DNA of 64,000 bases from a virus. The first letter of the stretch is position 1. Each line of letters starts with the position of its first letter. Where the stretch lies: the IMG/VR virus record IMGVR_UViG_3300028430_000572, positions 4,354 through 68,353 of that record. One strand, written 5' to 3'. The notes beneath the pieces were generated by a model that was not told the DNA's origin, made no database searches, and saw nothing but the letters and a program-made list of their open reading frames with translations. Below, in pieces: positions 28,703-41,895 of the stretch. The translations under genes and the position numbers were made by a program.

Positions 28703-28830
28703 TGATTGATCGTCGCGATGATCGCACAAGTCGCCATCGGGACGATTAACGCAAATGCGAGCACGCACGCAAAGCCGACGGCGACCGTAATGACAAGATT
28801 GATAATCGGCTCCATAGTTTCTTCTTCAAA

Positions 28831-28903
28831 CTGGCTGACTCGGGCTCGAACCGAGAACCACTCGCTTCAAAGGCGAGCGCACTGCCAATTGTGCTATCAG
28901 CCA
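28831..28903 (-). tRNA. tRNA-Gln(TTG)
   Basis: Full cloverleaf TGGCTGA/TCAGCCA, anticodon loop CTTTGAA, T-loop TTCGAGC, discriminator G; CCA not encoded. Confidence 0.88.
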
Positions 28904-28904
28904 A

Positions 28905-28976
28905 CATGCCGAAAGGGACTCGAACCCGTACTTGCTGATTTGGAATCAGCCGTGCTACCGTTAACACTATCGGCAT
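28905..28976 (-). tRNA. tRNA-Trp(CCA)
   Basis: Acceptor ATGCCGA/TCGGCAT, anticodon loop TTCCAAA, T-loop TTCGAGT with one T-stem mismatch; CCA not encoded. Confidence 0.82.
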
Positions 28977-35841: not shown

Positions 35842-36570
35842 CGACCCGCCCGAATCGACCACTTCTCGCATCGTGCGGGATGCTTGATGATGCACGACGA
35901 TCGGCTCTACGACGCTCGGCATGAGATCGGGGATGCAGCACAACTCGGGGCACATCGGCGAAACGATACCCTTGGCGACATCCCAGAGCGATTCTTGGTC
36001 AAGTTGTTCAGGGTCGGCGGCGCATCGAGTCGCCCATGCAACGAGTATCGATTCGCCCGTGCGGCCTTCGCCGACCCAAAGCGTGCCTGAGCAAAGATTG
36101 GAGTTGATGAGCGGGAATCGCTTTTTGTAAGACGGCGACAATGCGGGGCAGAATGCCGCGATCGTCGCGCCGCCGATCCCGCTCTTGCCGTCAGCCAGTC
36201 GAGCGATAGCCTCGTGTGCGGCTTTCGTGTTTGGGATTTCGCTGTCAGCGTCGAGCCAAAGTATCGGCATTCCAAACATCTGAGCCGCCTTGAGCATTAC
36301 GAGCGGCTTGAGTGCACAGTTGCGAGCCCATCCGCCGAGCGACTGGCCCCGAAACCTTGCGATCGGCAATGTCGCTTCGCCACGCTTGACGCGACGGCAA
36401 GACGATGCAAGCCGGTCGTCTACGCCAGCGTACTCGGGCGTAGTCATTGTGACAACGGCGAAGCCGAAGATGTCACGCGCGAGATCGAAGTATTCGGACA
36501 GGATGGGTCTTTGGGAAACTACGTTTGATTCCAGCAGCGGTCGCTTGCCGAACGACATTGGCGTTGTCAT
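35824..36570 (-). CDS. Nucleotide-diphospho-sugar transferase-like glycosyltransferase
   Basis: LKPLVM, ILWLDADS (DxD), SGTLW, DQESL and HHQASR motifs. Confidence 0.72.
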   Translation of the reverse strand: MTTPMSFGKRPLLESNVVSQRPILSEYFDLARDIFGFAVVTMTTPEYAGVDDRLASSCRRVKRGEATLPIARFRGQSLGGWARNCALKPLVMLKAAQMFGMPILWLDADSEIPNTKAAHEAIARLADGKSGIGGATIAAFCPALSPSYKKRFPLINSNLCSGTLWVGEGRTGESILVAWATRCAADPEQLDQESLWDVAKGIVSPMCPELCCIPDLMPSVVEPIVVHHQASRTMREVVDSGGSISPRN

Positions 36571-37348
36571 GCTCTTTCGCCTGATTGTCGTCGCGGCTCC
36601 AAGCAACGGCGGCGATGCGGTACTTGCGTTGAGGGTATCCTGCCCCTGACTTGTTCCATCCGTAAATATACGTCGGCCAAGTTACCCACGAATCAACAAT
36701 TTCGCAAGTCAGGCTATTGCCGACGTTGATAACCGCTGGCACTCTCGCCATCGATAGTTGCAGGTACGCCATCTTGCAGCACAACGGATCAACGTCTTGC
36801 AGCGTTGCGAAGAGTTGTGTTTCAATGTGCAATCCTCGATCTCTCGCGGCCATCGCTGCTGCGAGCATTGTGCCGCCAGCGCCGCACGCGGGATCGCCGA
36901 TGTGAGCAAACCGTTTCTTGCTCTTTGTGATCCATTCGATGCCCGGCATGGTCATCGATGCCATAAGGCGGGAGATGCAATCGGGCGTGAAGAACTGCCC
37001 GCGATTGGAATTCGACACTTCCATGCTCATGTAGAGCCCGCCGAGATGATCTGCGAAACGATCAGCGTCGAAACAACGCGAAAGCAACGCGAGGCATTCG
37101 CAAAACTTGTCTACGCAATCGCGATCGTACTTTTTGACGATGCGAAGATACTCGTCTTCGCGAGACTTGCGAACGTCGGGCGGGCTCGGCCATCGATTCG
37201 CTATTGCGACAGCAGACATCGAAACGAAGTCGCCGAACAACTCCCACGGCGATCGACCGCACGAACGGGAAATGCTGTAAATGGCATCTGCGATCGGTCG
37301 CCAGTGCTCTTGCTTCGATCCGTGCTTCTGCGCGTGAGTTCGTCCCAT
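36473..37348 (-). CDS. N-6 DNA methylase-like protein (HsdM-like, lacking NPPF/Y)
   Basis: GQFFTP, DPACGAG and GNSL present; no motif IV after GNSL. Confidence 0.75.
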   Translation of the reverse strand: MGRTHAQKHGSKQEHWRPIADAIYSISRSCGRSPWELFGDFVSMSAVAIANRWPSPPDVRKSREDEYLRIVKKYDRDCVDKFCECLALLSRCFDADRFADHLGGLYMSMEVSNSNRGQFFTPDCISRLMASMTMPGIEWITKSKKRFAHIGDPACGAGGTMLAAAMAARDRGLHIETQLFATLQDVDPLCCKMAYLQLSMARVPAVINVGNSLTCEIVDSWVTWPTYIYGWNKSGAGYPQRKYRIAAVAWSRDDNQAKEHDNANVVRQATAAGIKRSFPKTHPVRILRSRA

Positions 37349-37405
37349 GCGCCAATATACGGGATCGGGAGCGGCGAAGTGAGTCGGTCGATTTCGTCAC
37401 GAAAT
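37349..37405 (-). promoter_or_regulatory. Class A promoter
   Basis: Palindrome 37391-37405; TATATT-N5-ATG, 43 bp spacing. Confidence 0.65.
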
Positions 37406-38116
37406 CGCTTTGCCGTACAACTTCTTGTAGAACTCGCACTTTTTGATTCGGCGACGGGCAGACGCACACATAGGCATTGCGAATCGGTACTTGATCGCAT
37501 CTTGTATCAGTTGCGCATTCGGGTCCACGTTCGCACGAATCTTGGCGATCGCAGCATAACCATACCGAGCCCCGACGCTTCTAACGTGAACCTTGACACC
37601 ATGTATCATCATCGAGGTAGCATTTGATTCGCCGAGATATATCCACCCGCCCGCCTTGTAAATGCCGCCGCGATGATTTTGTCCGCTGTCTGCATAGGAC
37701 ATAATGGCATCGATTTCCGGCTTGATTTTGCGAAGCGATCGAAGTGCGAGTTTCACAAACGCAGAAACCTGAGTGGTGTGATCTTTCATTGCCACACGCA
37801 CAAGTTCCCACGCAACGTCCACATTTAGCGCGACTGCATAGCCGTTTCTCGATAGCGAGCCCGTACCAAAGGCAATGATGCCCACTCGCTTGCCGAACTC
37901 GATACACTCAAACACAATCGCGTTCATCGGGAGAGTTCCCGAGTAATGAAAGTTCTTGCACCACCATGACGCAACTCTGACATCGACTCGTTCGACATAG
38001 TAATCGAACTTGCCGCGAGATCCGAGTAGCGACATCGATTGCTTCGTTTCCCCGATACGGGAGACAACGCTCGACAACTTCTCGGGCTTATGTGAGAGAG
38101 GACGCATCGAGGACAT
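37397..38116 (-). CDS. mom: Mom-family adenine modification enzyme (GNAT fold)
   Basis: HYSG, GIIAFG, WELVRV and SYADSGQNHRGGIYKAGGWIYLG motifs. Start may be 38116 or 38035. Confidence 0.8.
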   Translation of the reverse strand: MSSMRPLSHKPEKLSSVVSRIGETKQSMSLLGSRGKFDYYVERVDVRVASWWCKNFHYSGTLPMNAIVFECIEFGKRVGIIAFGTGSLSRNGYAVALNVDVAWELVRVAMKDHTTQVSAFVKLALRSLRKIKPEIDAIMSYADSGQNHRGGIYKAGGWIYLGESNATSMMIHGVKVHVRSVGARYGYAAIAKIRANVDPNAQLIQDAIKYRFAMPMCASARRRIKKCEFYKKLYGKAIS

Positions 38117-38117
38117 A

Positions 38118-38190
38118 AGCGGATGGACAGGGATCGAACCTTCCTCCCTCACTTGGTAAGTGAGTGCATCGCCGTTGATGCTTCATCCGC
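38118..38190 (-). tRNA. Non-canonical tRNA-Gly(ACC)-like RNA
   Basis: GCGGATG/CATCCGC-U73, D stem GCAT/ATGC, anticodon arm CTCAC-TTACCAA-GTGAG, T-loop TTCGATC; A8, C14 and a bulged T stem. Confidence 0.72.
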
Positions 38191-38226
38191 ACATTGGTTA
38201 CTGACTGCGAATCGATTAACGAGAAA

Positions 38227-38946
38227 TCAGTCTTTCGACCGACGCATGAGTGAGTCGCAGATTCCGACGATGGCCGATGCGTCATCCTCAAACTCATTTC
38301 CGTCAGCGACCCATGCCGCGATCGCCGCCTTGATCTTGCCGTATTGCTCCGCCGTGAAGTCAACGCGCGTAGCCTCGGCGATCTTCGATTGTTTGTCAGG
38401 AGCAGAGATGGTCGGATCGACGGGAGCGAGAGTCGCCGGATCATCGCCCGGCACGTCGAGCATCTTCGCAAGTTCCTCCGACGACCAGCCGAGCCCGAGG
38501 CGATCGTCGGGGTCAATGGATTGCATGGCAACCTTCAACGCTTCGTCATCGAACTCGGAGAGGTCCGCAAGTCGGTTGTCGGCGATTGCGAATCGCTTGA
38601 GATCGTGCTTGGCCGGGTCTACCTTGATCGCCGCAATGTGCGTCCAACCGTTCTTCGCTGCGGCAGCAAACGTCGCATTGCCAGCAGCCACAACTCCGGT
38701 CTTGGCATTGACAACGATCGGCTTGAGTTGACCAATGCTCGCGAGCGACGCGGACAACTCGGCAATCTGAAACTCCGAGTGCAGTCGCGCGTTGTCGGGA
38801 TCGAGTTGCAAGTCGCCGACAGGAACGAGCATTGATTTCAAGCCGTCTGCGACTTTGCACACGACATCGGGATCGTTCTTCGGTTGCTCGGGCGGCCTGC
38901 GTGTAGGCTTGACGGGCGGGCGAGGCTTCGGCAATGGCGTGCTCAA
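38227..38946 (-). CDS. ParB N-terminal domain protein
   Basis: LDPDNARLH, GQLKPIVV, VAAGN and AIADNRLADLS motifs; TTG start with GGAG RBS. Confidence 0.8.
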   Translation of the reverse strand: MSTPLPKPRPPVKPTRRPPEQPKNDPDVVCKVADGLKSMLVPVGDLQLDPDNARLHSEFQIAELSASLASIGQLKPIVVNAKTGVVAAGNATFAAAAKNGWTHIAAIKVDPAKHDLKRFAIADNRLADLSEFDDEALKVAMQSIDPDDRLGLGWSSEELAKMLDVPGDDPATLAPVDPTISAPDKQSKIAEATRVDFTAEQYGKIKAAIAAWVADGNEFEDDASAIVGICDSLMRRSKD

Positions 38947-39003
38947 TGAATTACTCCGCTTGATTTCGTGGCGAAATTGATGCGACTGCAAACGATCATA
39001 GCA

Positions 39004-39813
39004 CTATTGCGGATCGGGAATCGACTTGAACACTGGGCGAGGCGGCGAAGTTGGAACGAGTTTGATTTTCGCAGCGTCGAGTTGAGCACTGGTATTTCGC
39101 ATTGACACTTCGGCACGATTGAGCGTCTTGTTGGCTTGCTTGATCGGGGGGGGTTCGTGCTGCTGCGTTGCTCGGCTCGGAACTTCGGGGATTGCTTTGA
39201 CTTCTTCGCGTCGCTTGTCAGCGCCCGTAATTCGCATGAGGTGCCCGAGATCAACCGCACACTCGGTCAGTGACTTGAGCGTGCGAGCGATGTTGGCCCC
39301 TTCCGTCGTTGTCAGTTCCGTATTTGGAATGGCCTGCCCGTCATGCACACGCTCCGAAATCGCCGCTGTCCATTGGGACATCACTTGCGCCGACTGCGTA
39401 AGCCTTTTGACGAGCGTTACGAATGCTTCATTGCCGACCTTTGGATTCGTTTCGGTGGCGTAGAGGTAATTGACTTTGCGAGCGGTCGAAATGCCGCCGT
39501 CGATAATCGCGGCCTGCTTCGCGACGGTACGCAAACCGCCAGCCTCGTATGCGGTCCAGAACGGGATATGGAAATGCCAGCAGAAGTCTTTGAGCGAAAA
39601 CGTCGGCCACATATTCCATTGTCTGCGAATCTCTGGCCAGTTGTAGACCATGCCCTTTGGCGAAACTTGAGCGAACCCCCAAAGCACGCACCGGCGAGTG
39701 CCCGGAAACGGCAAATCGTTTTCGAGCGGGTTGTGCTTCGGATATGTAGCCGTTTCGATGCCGATGGGCTTCTTTGATTCGCCAGCGGTATTGAACTTGC
39801 GACGCTTCGGCAT
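39004..39813 (-). CDS. Hypothetical protein
   Basis: 269 aa; TAATG coupling with the upstream nuclease gene. Confidence 0.55.
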   Translation of the reverse strand: MPKRRKFNTAGESKKPIGIETATYPKHNPLENDLPFPGTRRCVLWGFAQVSPKGMVYNWPEIRRQWNMWPTFSLKDFCWHFHIPFWTAYEAGGLRTVAKQAAIIDGGISTARKVNYLYATETNPKVGNEAFVTLVKRLTQSAQVMSQWTAAISERVHDGQAIPNTELTTTEGANIARTLKSLTECAVDLGHLMRITGADKRREEVKAIPEVPSRATQQHEPPPIKQANKTLNRAEVSMRNTSAQLDAAKIKLVPTSPPRPVFKSIPDPQ

Positions 39814-40898
39814 TACGCGCACTCCGAGATGATTTTCTTCGCGCGACGATGAGCGTCGCTGCCGGACTTGCTCATCGTAGTAGCAATGCTATCCAGCAGC
39901 GTAACGGGCGAATCGCCGCCGATCGTTTGCTCGCGAATCTGCCTGACGATTTCGTTGATTTCCATTTCGTCGAGCGGAGCGGCCTGCTCTTTCTCTTCTG
40001 CGAACGCGAGCGACGACTCAGTTCTCGGCAACGCAATGCGAGACACGCGACACTTTTCGCCGATGATGCACAGTCGCGTCATCGTGGGCGAGTGATGATC
40101 CTCGCCTTTACCGACGATGATCGAAGTTCCGACTTGCAAAAACAGCCCGCGACCAGCGCCAAACTTGTCGGCGTAATCGACTTTGCCCGAGCCGGTCTGA
40201 TCGTGCAAGTGCCCATTGCAAACGACCGACGATCGAGCGAGCATCCCGCCGTGAGAAGCGACTACGAGTTCGTGTGCTTCAGTCGTTGCGATGTAAGCAT
40301 CGGCATGTGACAATCCTACAACGAACGTCGCCACACCGTGCTTCATGCACGCCGCCGCCGAACGCTCCATTGCAGATACCGCCATACCGTGCGAAGTCTT
40401 GTATCCAGCGCCGATAATGCCGACAGCCGTATTGCCAACTTTGATACGCGCTGGATCAAGTTCAGCGTCTCGAACGAGTCCCGATTGCAGCAGCACGCCG
40501 AACGCCTGAGACAATCGCGATGTCGAAGGGTCGCCAGCGAACTGGTCGTGATTGCCGTCGATGCCGAGGATAGGGCCGGTCATCTTGACAATCGGACGAA
40601 GCAGTTGCATAAGTGCAATGGCTTCCGCACACGACGCGCCCTTGCGATGGAACCAATCTCCGACGCAGCACACGATCGGGTATTGCCCGCTCGCAGCGTG
40701 CTCTTTGGAGACTTGTTCGGCCACGAACTTGAGCACCGATACAAGGTCTTTGGCGTAAGTATCGTTTCGTCCCGAAGGCGGATTGATCGAGAAGTGCAGA
40801 TCGCCAAGAACGTAAACAATCACTTCGTCGGCATCGATATTGGCGACGGGAGCGGCTGGTCGATTTCGTGGCGAAATTGATTGCTTACTTGTGGGCAT
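39813..40898 (-). CDS. sbcD: SbcD/Mre11-like metallophosphoesterase nuclease
   Basis: GDLH, GDWFH, GNHD and GHLH motifs. Confidence 0.85.
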   Translation of the reverse strand: MPTSKQSISPRNRPAAPVANIDADEVIVYVLGDLHFSINPPSGRNDTYAKDLVSVLKFVAEQVSKEHAASGQYPIVCCVGDWFHRKGASCAEAIALMQLLRPIVKMTGPILGIDGNHDQFAGDPSTSRLSQAFGVLLQSGLVRDAELDPARIKVGNTAVGIIGAGYKTSHGMAVSAMERSAAACMKHGVATFVVGLSHADAYIATTEAHELVVASHGGMLARSSVVCNGHLHDQTGSGKVDYADKFGAGRGLFLQVGTSIIVGKGEDHHSPTMTRLCIIGEKCRVSRIALPRTESSLAFAEEKEQAAPLDEMEINEIVRQIREQTIGGDSPVTLLDSIATTMSKSGSDAHRRAKKIISECA

Positions 40899-41895
40899 GT
40901 TGATTGTCCATCGGGCGACCGCACGTTGGGCACTTGCGCGACATCGCCGCGAGTTGATTGTTCAATTCGGCAATGCGAAGCAACAATTGATCGCTCCGCG
41001 ACTCGGCATCTTCTGGAATCGCGGTAAGCGATAACAAAAACGATTCGACTGCTTCATGCTTCGATTTCGCTGCCTTGATTTTATCGAGCAGCGATTTGAT
41101 ATCGGCAATCGACTTTGACAACTCATCATGCCGCCGACTCATGCTTTCGATGTCGATGCTGCTATCGAACGTCGCGACAATATCGAGTGCTGCATCGCGA
41201 GCCTTCGCGTCGCGAGCGATGTCGCGTTCGGTCGATTCGATATCGGTAACAAGCGACTCGATTTTGTCGGCGTTGATAATCGCCGGGTCGGACTCGGCGG
41301 CAGACAGTCGCGATTCGGCATCTTGCATCATTTTCGATTTCGTATCGAAATCGCGAGCAGCGGACGCGGCATCCGTCTTTGCTCGCCCGGACGCTTCCAT
41401 CGCAATCGAAGCCCCTGACGCAGCGCCGATAATCTTGGCGACACGGCCAGCAGGATCATCGACAAGAATCGCGGCCTCGCGTTGTGTTTGGATGTTGAGC
41501 AAAATATCGATCCCGGCGATACGAGTCGGGCCGAGGCCGACAGTTGCAATCCAATCGTCGGGCAAGGACCGCCCCGGGTTCGTGAGGGATCGACGAGACA
41601 CTTTGCCCGTTTTCGCGTCTTTTGTCGATGCAACGTATTCGCCTTTGCCGTCAGACTTGCGAACGACCGATATTTGCTTGCCGTCTGCGAAGTCAACAAC
41701 GATCTTGCCTTCTTCAAATCCGTCCCTGACAAACGATGCGGCTGGCGAAGGATGTGAGCACGCCACAAGCGAGCGAACGATGTTGCTTTTGCCTGAGTCG
41801 GACGACCCGAAGATTACGCTCAGCCCTGGGCTAAGCGCAATGTCGGTCGATTCGTGCGAACGTACGTTCGTCAGTCTGATTCGCGAGATCGTCAT
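40885..41895 (-). CDS. SbcC/Rad50-like ATPase, N-terminal half
   Basis: LTNVRSH, Walker A GSSDSGKS, coiled coil ending in zinc hook CPTCG; no Walker B. Confidence 0.8.
   Translation of the reverse strand: MTISRIRLTNVRSHESTDIALSPGLSVIFGSSDSGKSNIVRSLVACSHPSPAASFVRDGFEEGKIVVDFADGKQISVVRKSDGKGEYVASTKDAKTGKVSRRSLTNPGRSLPDDWIATVGLGPTRIAGIDILLNIQTQREAAILVDDPAGRVAKIIGAASGASIAMEASGRAKTDAASAARDFDTKSKMMQDAESRLSAAESDPAIINADKIESLVTDIESTERDIARDAKARDAALDIVATFDSSIDIESMSRRHDELSKSIADIKSLLDKIKAAKSKHEAVESFLLSLTAIPEDAESRSDQLLLRIAELNNQLAAMSRKCPTCGRPMDNQHAHK

What the first reader, a model, noticed from the sequence alone, without database searches (positions are those of the whole stretch)
37397..38190. Non-canonical tRNA-Gly(ACC) directly abutting a Mom-like DNA-modification gene: a dedicated glycyl donor?
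Seen: a 73-nt cloverleaf at 38190-38118, far from the tRNA cluster, ending 1 nt before the first ATG (38116) of a Mom-family gene. It keeps the bacterial GlyRS identity elements (G1-C72, C2-G71, G3-C70, C35, C36, U73) but has an ACC anticodon that is very rare in bacteria, has lost U8/A14 and has a bulged T stem. Established: the T stem carries EF-Tu affinity determinants; staphylococcal non-proteinogenic tRNA-Gly species feed FemXAB this way; Mu Mom makes N6-carbamoylmethyladenine, a glycinamide-like adduct. From memory, to be verified: Mom has been reported to use Gly-tRNA(Gly) as donor. Inference: the phage encodes a translation-evading tRNA reserved for DNA hypermodification (anti-restriction).
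Basis: partly seen in the sequence, partly recalled or inferred. Interest (0 to 1): 0.9.

Follow-up and report, generated by a model that had tools for sequence, protein, structure and literature searches.

The report
Phage Mom gene with private tRNA-Gly
A freshwater phage carries an odd glycine-tRNA look-alike placed one base in front of its Mom DNA-modifying gene, and the same pairing recurs in most related Mom genes, so the RNA is probably the enzyme's own glycine carrier, although nobody has tested this at the bench.

Summary
Window 38118-38190 (-) is a 73-nt cloverleaf. It scores 33.3 bits on Rfam tRNA (cut-off 29). ARAGORN at default settings and a whole-window Rfam scan both miss it. 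It ends 1 nt before the ATG of a Pfam Mom gene (E 3e-28).

It keeps G1-C72, C2-G71, G3-C70, U73, C35 and C36. It also has A8, C14, an ACC anticodon and a bulged G in the T stem.

Mu Mom is published to take glycine from Gly-tRNA-Gly (PMC13219725).

- **Forward test of linkage:** 107 of 135 distinct Mom-homologue loci carry a tRNA-Gly-like element against mom on the same strand.
- **Reverse test:** 72 of 80 loci found only by the RNA's T-arm motif encode Mom on that strand.
- **Family features:** across 63 distinct RNAs the GlyRS identity elements are near-invariant, while U33 (29 of 63), U8 (5 of 63) and U55 (15 of 63) are mostly lost.

Best reading (about 0.65): a phage-supplied glycyl carrier for Mom.

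Translation evasion is well supported for the family. It is only partly supported for this copy, which keeps U33, G18G19 and TTC.

I found no paper describing the linkage. This scan has noted the same idea on other genomes. Nothing is shown experimentally.

The parts
38118..38190 (-). tRNA-Gly-like RNA gene, 73 nt, no encoded CCA. Anticodon ACC at 38157-38155. A8, C14. Bulged G at 38128 between T-stem pairs 51-63 and 50-64. GlyRS identity set present: G1-C72, C2-G71, G3-C70, U73, C35, C36.
   Evidence: Sequence. Rfam tRNA 33.3 bits with alignment. Fold z = -2.97. 54.7 bits on model R1 and 59.8 bits on model R3; both models were built without it. 100% identical in relative L289.
37397..38116 (-). 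mom homologue, 239 aa from the ATG at 38116. It has a 38-residue N-terminal extension ahead of the Pfam match.
   Evidence: PF25680 E 3e-28. PDB 8bv8 Mu Mom E 5.4e-7, with equivalents of Mu H58, Y59, R111, D149 and Y159 conserved in the alignment. Relatives P0002-P0004 start at the same Met. Third-codon-position differences against L289 in the extension.
38227..38991 (-). ParB-N-like gene directly upstream. Its stop lies 36 nt before the RNA. It is probably in the same minus-strand transcription unit.
   Evidence: PF02195 E 4e-4, below the curated cut-off. A homologue lies directly upstream of mom in 38 of 135 loci. A ParB-like gene is annotated beside Mom in phages Wyborn, Phonegingi and phiEf11, and one gene away in BarretLemon.
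36473..37348 (-). N6 DNA-methylase-like gene directly downstream of mom.
   Evidence: PF02384 E 9.5e-8, 32.1 bits against a cut-off of 20.4.

Best explanation
The element is a phage-encoded tRNA-Gly-like RNA. It belongs to a large group of such RNAs that are physically coupled to mom genes, and it most likely serves as the glycyl donor for the adjacent Mom enzyme.

Proposed path:
1. It is transcribed with the ParB-like/mom/methylase-like genes on the minus strand.
2. It is cut out by host tRNA-processing enzymes.
3. It receives CCA from the host enzyme.
4. It is charged with glycine by host GlyRS, through the retained identity set.
5. Mom uses it to put glycine on N6 of adenine in double-stranded DNA. 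In Mu this rearranges to N6-carbamoylmethyladenine and protects DNA from restriction.

The non-canonical body (A8/C14, and a bulge inside the three T-stem pairs that set EF-Tu affinity) would lower its use by EF-Tu and the ribosome, leaving a private pool for Mom.

What is shown: the RNA fold, the identity elements, the Mom homology and the two-way genomic linkage. What is taken from the literature: the Mom chemistry and the T-stem/EF-Tu rule. What is inferred: transcription, processing, charging, use by Mom and reduced EF-Tu binding.
For: **Fold and identity.** The cloverleaf passes the Rfam cut-off. All GlyRS determinants named by Rietmeyer et al. (PMC7826273, passages) are present.

**Forward linkage.**
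- ARAGORN on 160 Mom loci found 26 tRNAs. 22 are tRNA-Gly, all on mom's strand.
- With covariance models R1 and R2, 107 of 135 distinct loci have an adjacent element: 104 downstream at a median 25 nt from the end of homology, and 3 upstream.
- In 730 kb the only non-adjacent hits were 3 ordinary tRNAs and 2 elements 0.5-0.6 kb away.

**Reverse linkage.** 72 of 80 loci retrieved by an 18-nt T-arm motif encode Mom, all 72 on the same strand. 11 are of the upstream type seen in the window. At least 5 of the 8 misses are cut by a contig end.

**The RNAs are under structural selection.**
- 98.3% of cells are paired, 17 of 21 pairs carry compensatory changes, and 0 of 500 shuffles reach the covariation score (for the 17-sequence set).
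- The tertiary pair 18-55 covaries: A-G in 41, G-U in 15.

**Constraint pattern across 63 distinct RNAs.**
- Invariant in 63 of 63: G1, C2, G71, C72, C35, C36. U73 in 62 of 63; G3-C70 in 60 of 63.
- U33 in only 29 of 63.
- Position 34: U 36, A 19, C 5, G 3.
- A8 in 57 of 63.
- G55 in 48 of 63.
- T-stem bulge in 40 of 63.

**Non-circular class test.**
- On R3 (47 bulged-class RNAs, window excluded) the window scores 59.8 bits against 46.9 for E. coli glyT.
- On Rfam tRNA it scores 33.3 against 64.9-69.1 for E. coli tRNA-Gly.

**Other points.**
- GGT is the rarest Gly codon in this phage: 200 of 1585.
- There is no tyrosine integrase, and the genome is complete with terminal repeats.
- One cultured case (Phonegingi) has the tRNA-Gly on the opposite strand, which fits a trans-acting RNA.
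- Mom's use of Gly-tRNA-Gly: PMC13219725.
Against: - There is no expression, charging or modification data. RNA-library contigs covered parts of mom and the ParB-like gene but not the RNA, and such contigs prove nothing either way.
- Mu Mom works with all three host isoacceptors and has no tRNA of its own, so a private tRNA is not required for the chemistry.
- 5 of 8 cultured Mom phages sampled have no element within 1-1.2 kb. 28 of 135 loci have none adjacent.
- Model scores alone do not separate mom-linked RNAs from ordinary tRNA-Gly. E. coli glyT scores 52.5 on R1 and 53.2 on R2, against 54.7 for the window on R1.
- This copy keeps U33, G18G19, T54-U55-C56, A37 and a 7-nt loop, so it could still decode GGU.
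- Mu's essential R151 aligns to Gly in this Mom, and the S124 equivalent is ambiguous. The chemistry may therefore differ.
- Many loci are related, so the counts are not independent events.
Confidence: 0.65

Rival explanations
1. It is an ordinary phage tRNA-Gly used in translation, decoding GGU or more. It sits near mom by descent or gene packing and has no special link to Mom chemistry.
For: - It keeps U33, A37, a 7-nt anticodon loop, G18G19 and TTCGATC.
- The phage carries other tRNAs: Met, Gln, Trp.
- E. coli tRNA-Gly scores about as well on R1.
Against: - The linkage with mom is strong in both directions: 107 of 135 and 72 of 80.
- 22 of the 26 ARAGORN tRNAs in Mom loci are Gly.
- GGT is the rarest Gly codon here.
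- It scores 33.3 Rfam bits against 55-65 for this phage's true tRNAs.
- A8/C14 and the T-stem bulge are shared with the mom-linked class, whose members largely lack U33 and U55.
Confidence: 0.12
2. It is a cis-acting tRNA-like element of the mom mRNA. Processing by RNase P/Z, or binding of GlyRS or Mom, would control mom translation. For example, cleavage after U73 would leave a near-leaderless UAUG mRNA, and in the downstream type it would remove the stop codon. On this reading the RNA need not act as a glycine donor.
For: - The RNA ends 1 nt before the ATG and no Shine-Dalgarno sequence precedes it.
- In 101 of 103 downstream-type loci the mom frame runs into the element, and in 84 it runs through the whole element.
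- In upstream-type loci the mom frame is open across the RNA.
- Mu mom is known for unusual translational control. This rests on the title of a reference seen; the rest is recalled.
Against: - A purely cis role does not explain near-invariance of exactly the GlyRS identity nucleotides, including C35, C36 and U73.
- It does not explain maintenance of the elbow pair 18-55.
- The element occurs upstream, downstream and, in Phonegingi, on the opposite strand.
- Both roles could coexist.
Confidence: 0.12
3. It is an extra tRNA-Gly that buffers the host Gly-tRNA pool drained by Mom, or a decoy against host tRNA-targeting defences. It would not be a reserved, translation-excluded donor.
For: - Silva et al. 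note possible adverse effects of co-opting the translation machinery (Discussion).
- This copy looks decoding-competent in its anticodon loop.
Against: - The family-wide loss of U33, U8 and U55 and the D-arm-less forms are hard to square with a role in feeding the ribosome.
- No defence-related evidence was obtained.
Confidence: 0.08
4. It is a remnant of a host tRNA-Gly gene at a phage attachment site, or a decaying tRNA pseudogene.
For: Many temperate phages integrate into tRNA genes (general knowledge). Default tRNA finders miss the element.
Against: - It is a full-length cloverleaf, not a 3' fragment.
- There is no PF00589 integrase in a complete 68-kb genome with terminal repeats.
- The exact 27-nt 3' part occurs in only 1 of the GTDB species genomes' contigs. 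That contig is a 3.5-kb relative of this phage, not a host tRNA gene.
- The family shows compensatory covariation.
Confidence: 0.03

Closest known systems
Bacteriophage Mu Mom with host Gly-tRNA-Gly (Silva et al., Nat Commun 2026, PMC13219725; PDB 8bv8; Pfam PF25680)
   Same: The same enzyme family. The published co-substrate is exactly the kind of molecule encoded next to the gene here. The target in Mu is N6 of adenine in dsDNA, giving restriction evasion.
   Different: - Mu encodes no tRNA and uses any host isoacceptor.
- The paper's main text treats tRNA as a host resource and does not mention phage-encoded or neighbouring tRNAs (supplements not seen).
- The window's Mom is only distantly related: E 5.4e-7 to 8bv8.
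- Mu R151 aligns to Gly.
Non-proteogenic tRNA-Gly isoacceptors of Staphylococcus aureus feeding FmhB/FemA/FemB (Rietmeyer et al., NAR 2021, PMC7826273)
   Same: The same logic. These are tRNA-Gly species that keep the GlyRS identity elements but have weak EF-Tu determinants in the first three T-stem pairs and altered D/T regions. They are reserved for a GNAT-fold aminoacyl-transferase outside translation (abstract and passages).
   Different: - They are cellular, not viral.
- The acceptor substrate is peptidoglycan precursor, not DNA.
- The paper describes the lineage as confined to staphylococci.
- The window RNA has G49-C65, A50-U64 and A51-U63 plus a bulge, rather than A49-U65, U50-A64 and A51-U63.
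- It is not a member of that lineage.
Ordinary phage-encoded tRNAs (codon-usage or defence-evasion tRNAs)
   Same: A phage-borne cloverleaf gene. This phage also has such tRNAs (Met, Gln, Trp).
   Different: - Those score 55-65 bits on Rfam tRNA, against 33.3 here.
- The Gly-like RNA is isolated from them.
- It matches the rarest Gly codon.
- It is tied to one enzyme gene across many lineages.
Aminoacylatable tRNA-like structures at the 3' ends of plant viral RNAs (recalled, not checked here)
   Same: A virus-encoded tRNA mimic kept chargeable by a host synthetase. In the downstream-type mom loci the element sits at the 3' end of an mRNA.
   Different: Those act in cis on an RNA genome and are not known as donors for an enzyme. 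Here the element is a DNA-phage gene that also occurs upstream of mom and on the opposite strand.

Membership tests
tRNA (Rfam RF00005) | Cloverleaf scoring at or above the curated gathering score | tested here: met
   33.3 bits against 29, full-length match. The scan of the 501-nt stretch reports it; the whole-window scan does not.
tRNA (canonical elongator) | Universal core nucleotides U8, A14, and a regular 5-bp T stem; called by a standard finder | tested here: not met
   A8, C14, and a bulged G between pairs 51-63 and 50-64. ARAGORN at default does not call it. U33, G18G19 and T54-U55-C56 are kept.
tRNA-Gly (substrate of bacterial GlyRS) | G1-C72, C2-G71, U73, C35, C36 (as listed in PMC7826273), plus G3-C70 | tested here: met
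   All are present in the sequence. Actual charging was not tested.
mom-linked tRNA-Gly-like RNAs (group defined here) | Lies directly against a Mom-family gene on the same strand | tested here: met
   It ends 1 nt before the mom ATG. The upstream arrangement is also seen in 3 of the 107 adjacent elements among 135 loci (L118, L138, L140) and in 11 of 72 motif-found loci.
mom-linked tRNA-Gly-like RNAs (group defined here) | Shared non-canonical body: A8 and a one-base bulge in the 3' strand of the T stem | tested here: met
   A8 is found in 57 of 63 and the bulge in 40 of 63, and the window has both. On R3, built without it, it scores 59.8 bits against 46.9 for E. coli glyT.
mom-linked tRNA-Gly-like RNAs (group defined here) | Loss of decoding-related invariants (U33, U55/G18) | tested here: not met
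   The window keeps U33, G18 and U55. The group has U33 in 29 of 63 and U55 in 15 of 63.
Mom family (Pfam PF25680) | Profile match above the cut-off, and the catalytic residues of Mu Mom | tested here: inconclusive
   The profile is met: 99.3 bits against 27.1. Equivalents of H58, Y59, R111, D149 and Y159 are conserved. R151 aligns to Gly, and S124 falls at an indel next to an invariant Ser.
Staphylococcal non-proteogenic tRNA-Gly | Weak T-stem set A49-U65, U50-A64, A51-U63, and membership of a staphylococcal lineage | tested here: not met
   The window has G49-C65, A50-U64 and A51-U63 plus a bulge. It comes from a freshwater phage. It works alike by inference but is not a member.
attP/tRNA remnant | A partial tRNA copy next to an integrase, identical to a host tRNA 3' part | tested here: not met
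   It is full length. There is no PF00589 match. The only exact match in the genome collection is a relative of the phage. Serine recombinases were not searched.

The most novel reading that the evidence does not exclude
Many phages carry a two-part DNA-hypermodification cassette: a Mom enzyme plus a private glycyl-carrier RNA that has left the translation system. The RNA would be chargeable by host GlyRS but unfit for EF-Tu and the ribosome.

Its gene overlaps the mom reading frame so tightly that cutting out the RNA and translating Mom from the same transcript exclude each other. In the upstream type seen here, cleavage would leave a leaderless mom mRNA. This would give a built-in ratio or timing control.

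Mom clades may have co-evolved with their own RNA class into orthogonal donor-enzyme pairs.
Probability: 0.3. Interest if true: 0.9.

Novelty: new variant of a known kind. Interest (0 to 1): 0.8.

Why it matters
If true, it would be the first case of a virus encoding a non-translational aminoacyl carrier RNA dedicated to modifying DNA.

- It would extend the staphylococcal 'non-proteogenic tRNA' principle to phage anti-restriction.
- It would explain how Mom can draw on Gly-tRNA without competing with EF-Tu.
- It would show that a whole class of small RNA genes is missing from phage annotation. The element is unannotated in the cultured Arthrobacter phages Wyborn and BarretLemon, and standard finders miss most members.
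- It would give a genomic marker for tRNA-dependent DNA hypermodification.
- It would offer compact chargeable RNAs, including 64-67-nt D-arm-less forms, for studying GlyRS, EF-Tu and Mom recognition.

Tried and rejected
- **Single-protein viral scan.** It found no relative.
- **Sequencing runs.** Two RNA libraries hold short contigs on mom and on the ParB-like gene but none on the RNA. This shows neither expression nor its absence. The DNA runs only showed a strain variant.
- **Promoter and terminator scan of 36300-41200.** 0 promoter-like sites and 7 terminator-like sites, against 5.2 expected. It was uninformative.
- **R1/R2 score as a membership test.** Rejected after the E. coli control: glyT scores 52.5 and 53.2 bits.
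- **att-site reading.** Rejected. Serine recombinases were not searched.
- **Covariation among close relatives.** Not possible, because the only DNA relative (L289) has an identical RNA.
- **Steps not taken.** I made no Mom tree, no structure prediction and no complex prediction. The complex tool takes no RNA partner.
- **Literature.** Searches found no paper linking a phage-encoded tRNA to mom. Supplements of PMC13219725 could not be seen, and they may hold neighbourhood data.
- **Limits of the counts.** R2 was run only on the 69 loci that R1 had missed, plus the window.
Full report
**1. What is there**

The genome is a single 68,353-bp record with a 142-bp terminal repeat and 58% G+C. It is rated complete. 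The window is bases 4354-68353 of it.

On the minus strand the order of features is:
- a ParB-N-like gene (38991-38227)
- a 36-nt spacer
- the 73-nt element (38190-38118)
- one T
- a Mom-family gene (38116-37397)
- a 48-nt spacer
- an N6-methylase-like gene (37348-36473)

The element folds as a cloverleaf and matches the whole Rfam tRNA model at 33.3 bits (cut-off 29). The alignment shows one inserted G in the 3' strand of the T stem. Its MFE z-score is -2.97.

ARAGORN at default does not call it. A whole-window Rfam scan lists only the phage's tRNA-Gln (65.2 bits) and tRNA-Trp (55.2 bits). So the element is real but clearly atypical.

Its features are G1-C72, C2-G71, G3-C70, U73, anticodon ACC with C35 and C36, A8, C14, G18G19, U33, and T loop TTCGATC. 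The T stem is G49-C65, A50-U64, a bulged G, A51-U63, G52-C62 and G53-C61.

**2. The neighbouring gene**

The ORF from the ATG at 38116 matches Pfam Mom at E 3e-28 and Mu Mom (PDB 8bv8) at E 5.4e-7.

In that alignment the equivalents of Mu H58, Y59, R111, D149 and Y159 are conserved. Silva et al. report these residues as important or essential (passages). R151 aligns to a glycine. S124 falls at a small indel beside a serine that is invariant in this clade.

Three relatives begin at the same methionine. Against the DNA relative L289, the differences within the N-terminal extension fall mainly on third codon positions. The ATG one base after the RNA is therefore the likely start.

**3. Literature**

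Silva et al. (Nat Commun 2026, PMC13219725) show the following. I read the abstract, passages and the Discussion.
- Mu Mom transfers glycine from Gly-tRNA-Gly to N6 of adenine in dsDNA.
- All three E. coli isoacceptors work.
- Gly-tRNA-Ala does not work.

The main text treats tRNA as a host resource. 'Phage-encoded tRNA', 'neighbor' and 'genomic context' each occur 0 times.

Rietmeyer et al. (PMC7826273; abstract and passages) give three relevant points:
- the glycine identity set
- the rule that the first three T-stem pairs set EF-Tu affinity, with glycine among the weakest esterified residues
- the staphylococcal precedent of non-proteogenic tRNA-Gly that escape EF-Tu

Three searches found no paper on a mom-linked tRNA.

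**4. Forward test of linkage**

From an alignment of the window's Mom and nine relatives, I fetched 80 viral and 80 metagenomic Mom loci at 26-42% identity. They make 135 distinct loci after removing identical mom DNA.

ARAGORN found 26 tRNAs in them:
- 22 tRNA-Gly (19 UCC, 3 ACC), all on mom's strand and nearly all starting within about 40 nt of the end of homology
- 1 of undetermined type, directly after mom
- 1 Met
- 2 Trp

The 17 regular tRNA-Gly gave model R1. Its structure is paired in 99.7% of cells, and 17 of 21 pairs carry compensatory changes.

R1 found many more elements that ARAGORN had missed. That raised the count to 72 of 135 loci.

A second model, R2, was built from 66 aligned hits. 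One of those hits is the window's tRNA-Trp, which I could not remove. R2 was run on the 69 loci without an R1 hit, and it raised the count to 107 of 135: 104 downstream and 3 upstream.

Of the 28 loci without an adjacent element:
- 18 belong to one clade at 27-28% identity
- 2 have the element 0.5-0.6 kb away
- 2 have under 70 nt of downstream sequence

**5. Reverse test of linkage**

80 loci were listed and examined.
- 72 of 80 encode a Mom homologue (tblastn E <= 1e-5), all 72 on the RNA's strand.
- In 39 the motif lies 0-250 nt after the Mom match.
- In 22 it lies 280-1320 nt after.
- In 11 it lies 7-97 nt before the match, which is the window's arrangement.
- At least 5 of the 8 misses are cut by a contig end on the side where mom would be.

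**6. What kind of RNA the family is**

I examined 63 distinct mom-linked RNAs, the window included.
- The four helices are paired in 98.3% of cells, and 0 of 500 shuffles reach the covariation score. This alignment was fitted to the model, which favours pairing.
- G1, C2, G71, C72, C35 and C36 are invariant. U73 is present in 62 of 63 and G3-C70 in 60 of 63.
- U33 survives in only 29 of 63.
- Position 34 is U in 36, A in 19, C in 5 and G in 3.
- Position 8 is A in 57.
- Position 55 is G in 48 and covaries with position 18: A-G in 41, G-U in 15.
- 40 carry a one-base bulge at the same place in the T stem as the window.

A further class of 64-67 nt lacks a D arm but keeps the acceptor stem, NCC loop and bulged T arm.

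This pattern shows strict keeping of what GlyRS reads and of the L-shape, with loss of what the ribosome needs. It is the main argument that the family does not decode.

**7. Controls on membership**

E. coli glyT scores 52.5 bits on R1 and 53.2 on R2, and glyVXY scores 47.7 on R1. The window scores 54.7 on R1. These models therefore recognise tRNA-Gly in general.

I then built R3 from 47 bulged-class RNAs without the window. Its scores were:

| Sequence | R3 bits |
|---|---|
| Window element | 59.8 |
| E. coli glyT | 46.9 |
| Window tRNA-Trp | 36.2 |

On the general Rfam tRNA model the order is reversed:

| Sequence | Rfam tRNA result |
|---|---|
| E. coli tRNA-Gly | 64.9-69.1 bits |
| Window element | 33.3 bits |
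| Phonegingi | 36.0 bits |
| L194 | 32.3 bits |
| Seven other mom-linked RNAs | not reported at E <= 0.01 |

So the window's RNA sits with the mom-linked class, by position and by its shared A8 and bulge. It is nevertheless one of the more tRNA-like members.

**8. Tests of the rival readings on this window**

- Gly codons in 64 crude ORFs are GGC 845, GGG 277, GGA 263 and GGT 200. An ACC anticodon therefore matches the rarest codon.
- There is no tyrosine integrase.
- The exact 27-nt 3' part occurs once in the species-genome collection. The hit is a 3.5-kb MAG contig that is a relative of this phage. There the ParB-like 3' end, the spacer and the whole RNA are identical to the window. Two bases are inserted after the RNA, and mom diverges right after its ATG.
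- A strain variant in a public DNA run shows the same sharp boundary.
- The promoter and terminator scans were uninformative.

**9. Cultured phages**

Arthrobacter phages Wyborn and BarretLemon each have an unannotated element (63.6 and 64.3 bits on R2). It overlaps the last 21 nt of the Mom gene.

Microbacterium phage Phonegingi has an annotated tRNA-Gly(tcc) 33 nt after Mom, but on the opposite strand.

Enterococcus phiEf11, Listeria A511, Vibrio 1.187.O, and Bacillus SplendidRed and SerPounce have none within 1-1.2 kb.

That makes 3 of 8 sampled cultured phages that carry the element.

**10. Verdict**

The most likely function is a phage-supplied glycyl carrier for Mom (about 0.65). Reservation from translation is well supported for the family and plausible, not shown, for this copy.

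This scan had already noted the same idea on other genomes. I saw those notes only after my own linkage result, and they are not independent evidence. By my searches the linkage is not in print.

No experiment supports any functional step.

Noticed in passing
L001-L160, downstream-type loci (e.g. L101 1106-1177, L005 1127-1199): In 101 of 103 downstream-type loci the mom reading frame has no stop before the RNA starts. In 84 it runs through the whole element, although only 173 of 312 frames of these elements are stop-free. Cutting out the RNA would leave a mom mRNA without a stop codon. This is unexplained.
   Followed up: partly
L169, L179, L187, L194, L201, L203, L205, L208, L223, L226, L228, L118, L138, L140: All upstream-type elements encode CCA after the discriminator, and many have U8, unlike the window. 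The mom frame is open across them, and several have no ATG/GTG/TTG between the RNA's end and the start of homology.
   Followed up: partly
window 38227-38991 (-); L161, L162, L163, L285: A ParB-N-like nuclease-domain gene precedes mom in the window and in 38 of 135 Mom loci. It also does so in phages Wyborn, Phonegingi and phiEf11, and it lies one gene away in BarretLemon. It may be a third part of the cassette.
   Followed up: partly
window 38117/38116; L289 460-470: There is a sharp mosaic joint exactly at the RNA/mom junction. Relative L289 and a strain variant in run X18 are identical to the window through the RNA and upstream. They diverge by tens of substitutions and indels from the mom start onward.
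   Followed up: partly
L002, L003, L007, L041, L061, L080 and others: A class of 64-67-nt mom-linked elements has no D arm. It keeps the GCG.../...CGCU acceptor, an NCC loop and the bulged T arm.
   Followed up: no
alignment A4, columns 19/60 and 20/61: Tertiary elbow pairs covary. Positions 18-55 are A-G in 41 and G-U in 15 of 63. Positions 19-56 are G-C in 54 and A-U in 4. The L-shape therefore seems to be kept even where U55 is lost.
   Followed up: partly
L161 1774-1844 (OR475274.1); L285 1550-1620 (NC_031252.1): The GenBank/RefSeq records of Arthrobacter phages Wyborn and BarretLemon do not annotate the tRNA-Gly-like element that overlaps the 3' end of their Mom gene.
   Followed up: yes
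window 28830-28976 (-); genome C1 3862-3937: tRNA-Gln(UUG) and tRNA-Trp(CCA) abut each other with no spacer. A tRNA-Met lies just outside the window.
   Followed up: no
L289 record title; P0004: The only genome-collection relative is a 3.5-kb contig binned into a Bacteroidota MAG. This is a weak hint at the host, or a binning artefact.
   Followed up: no
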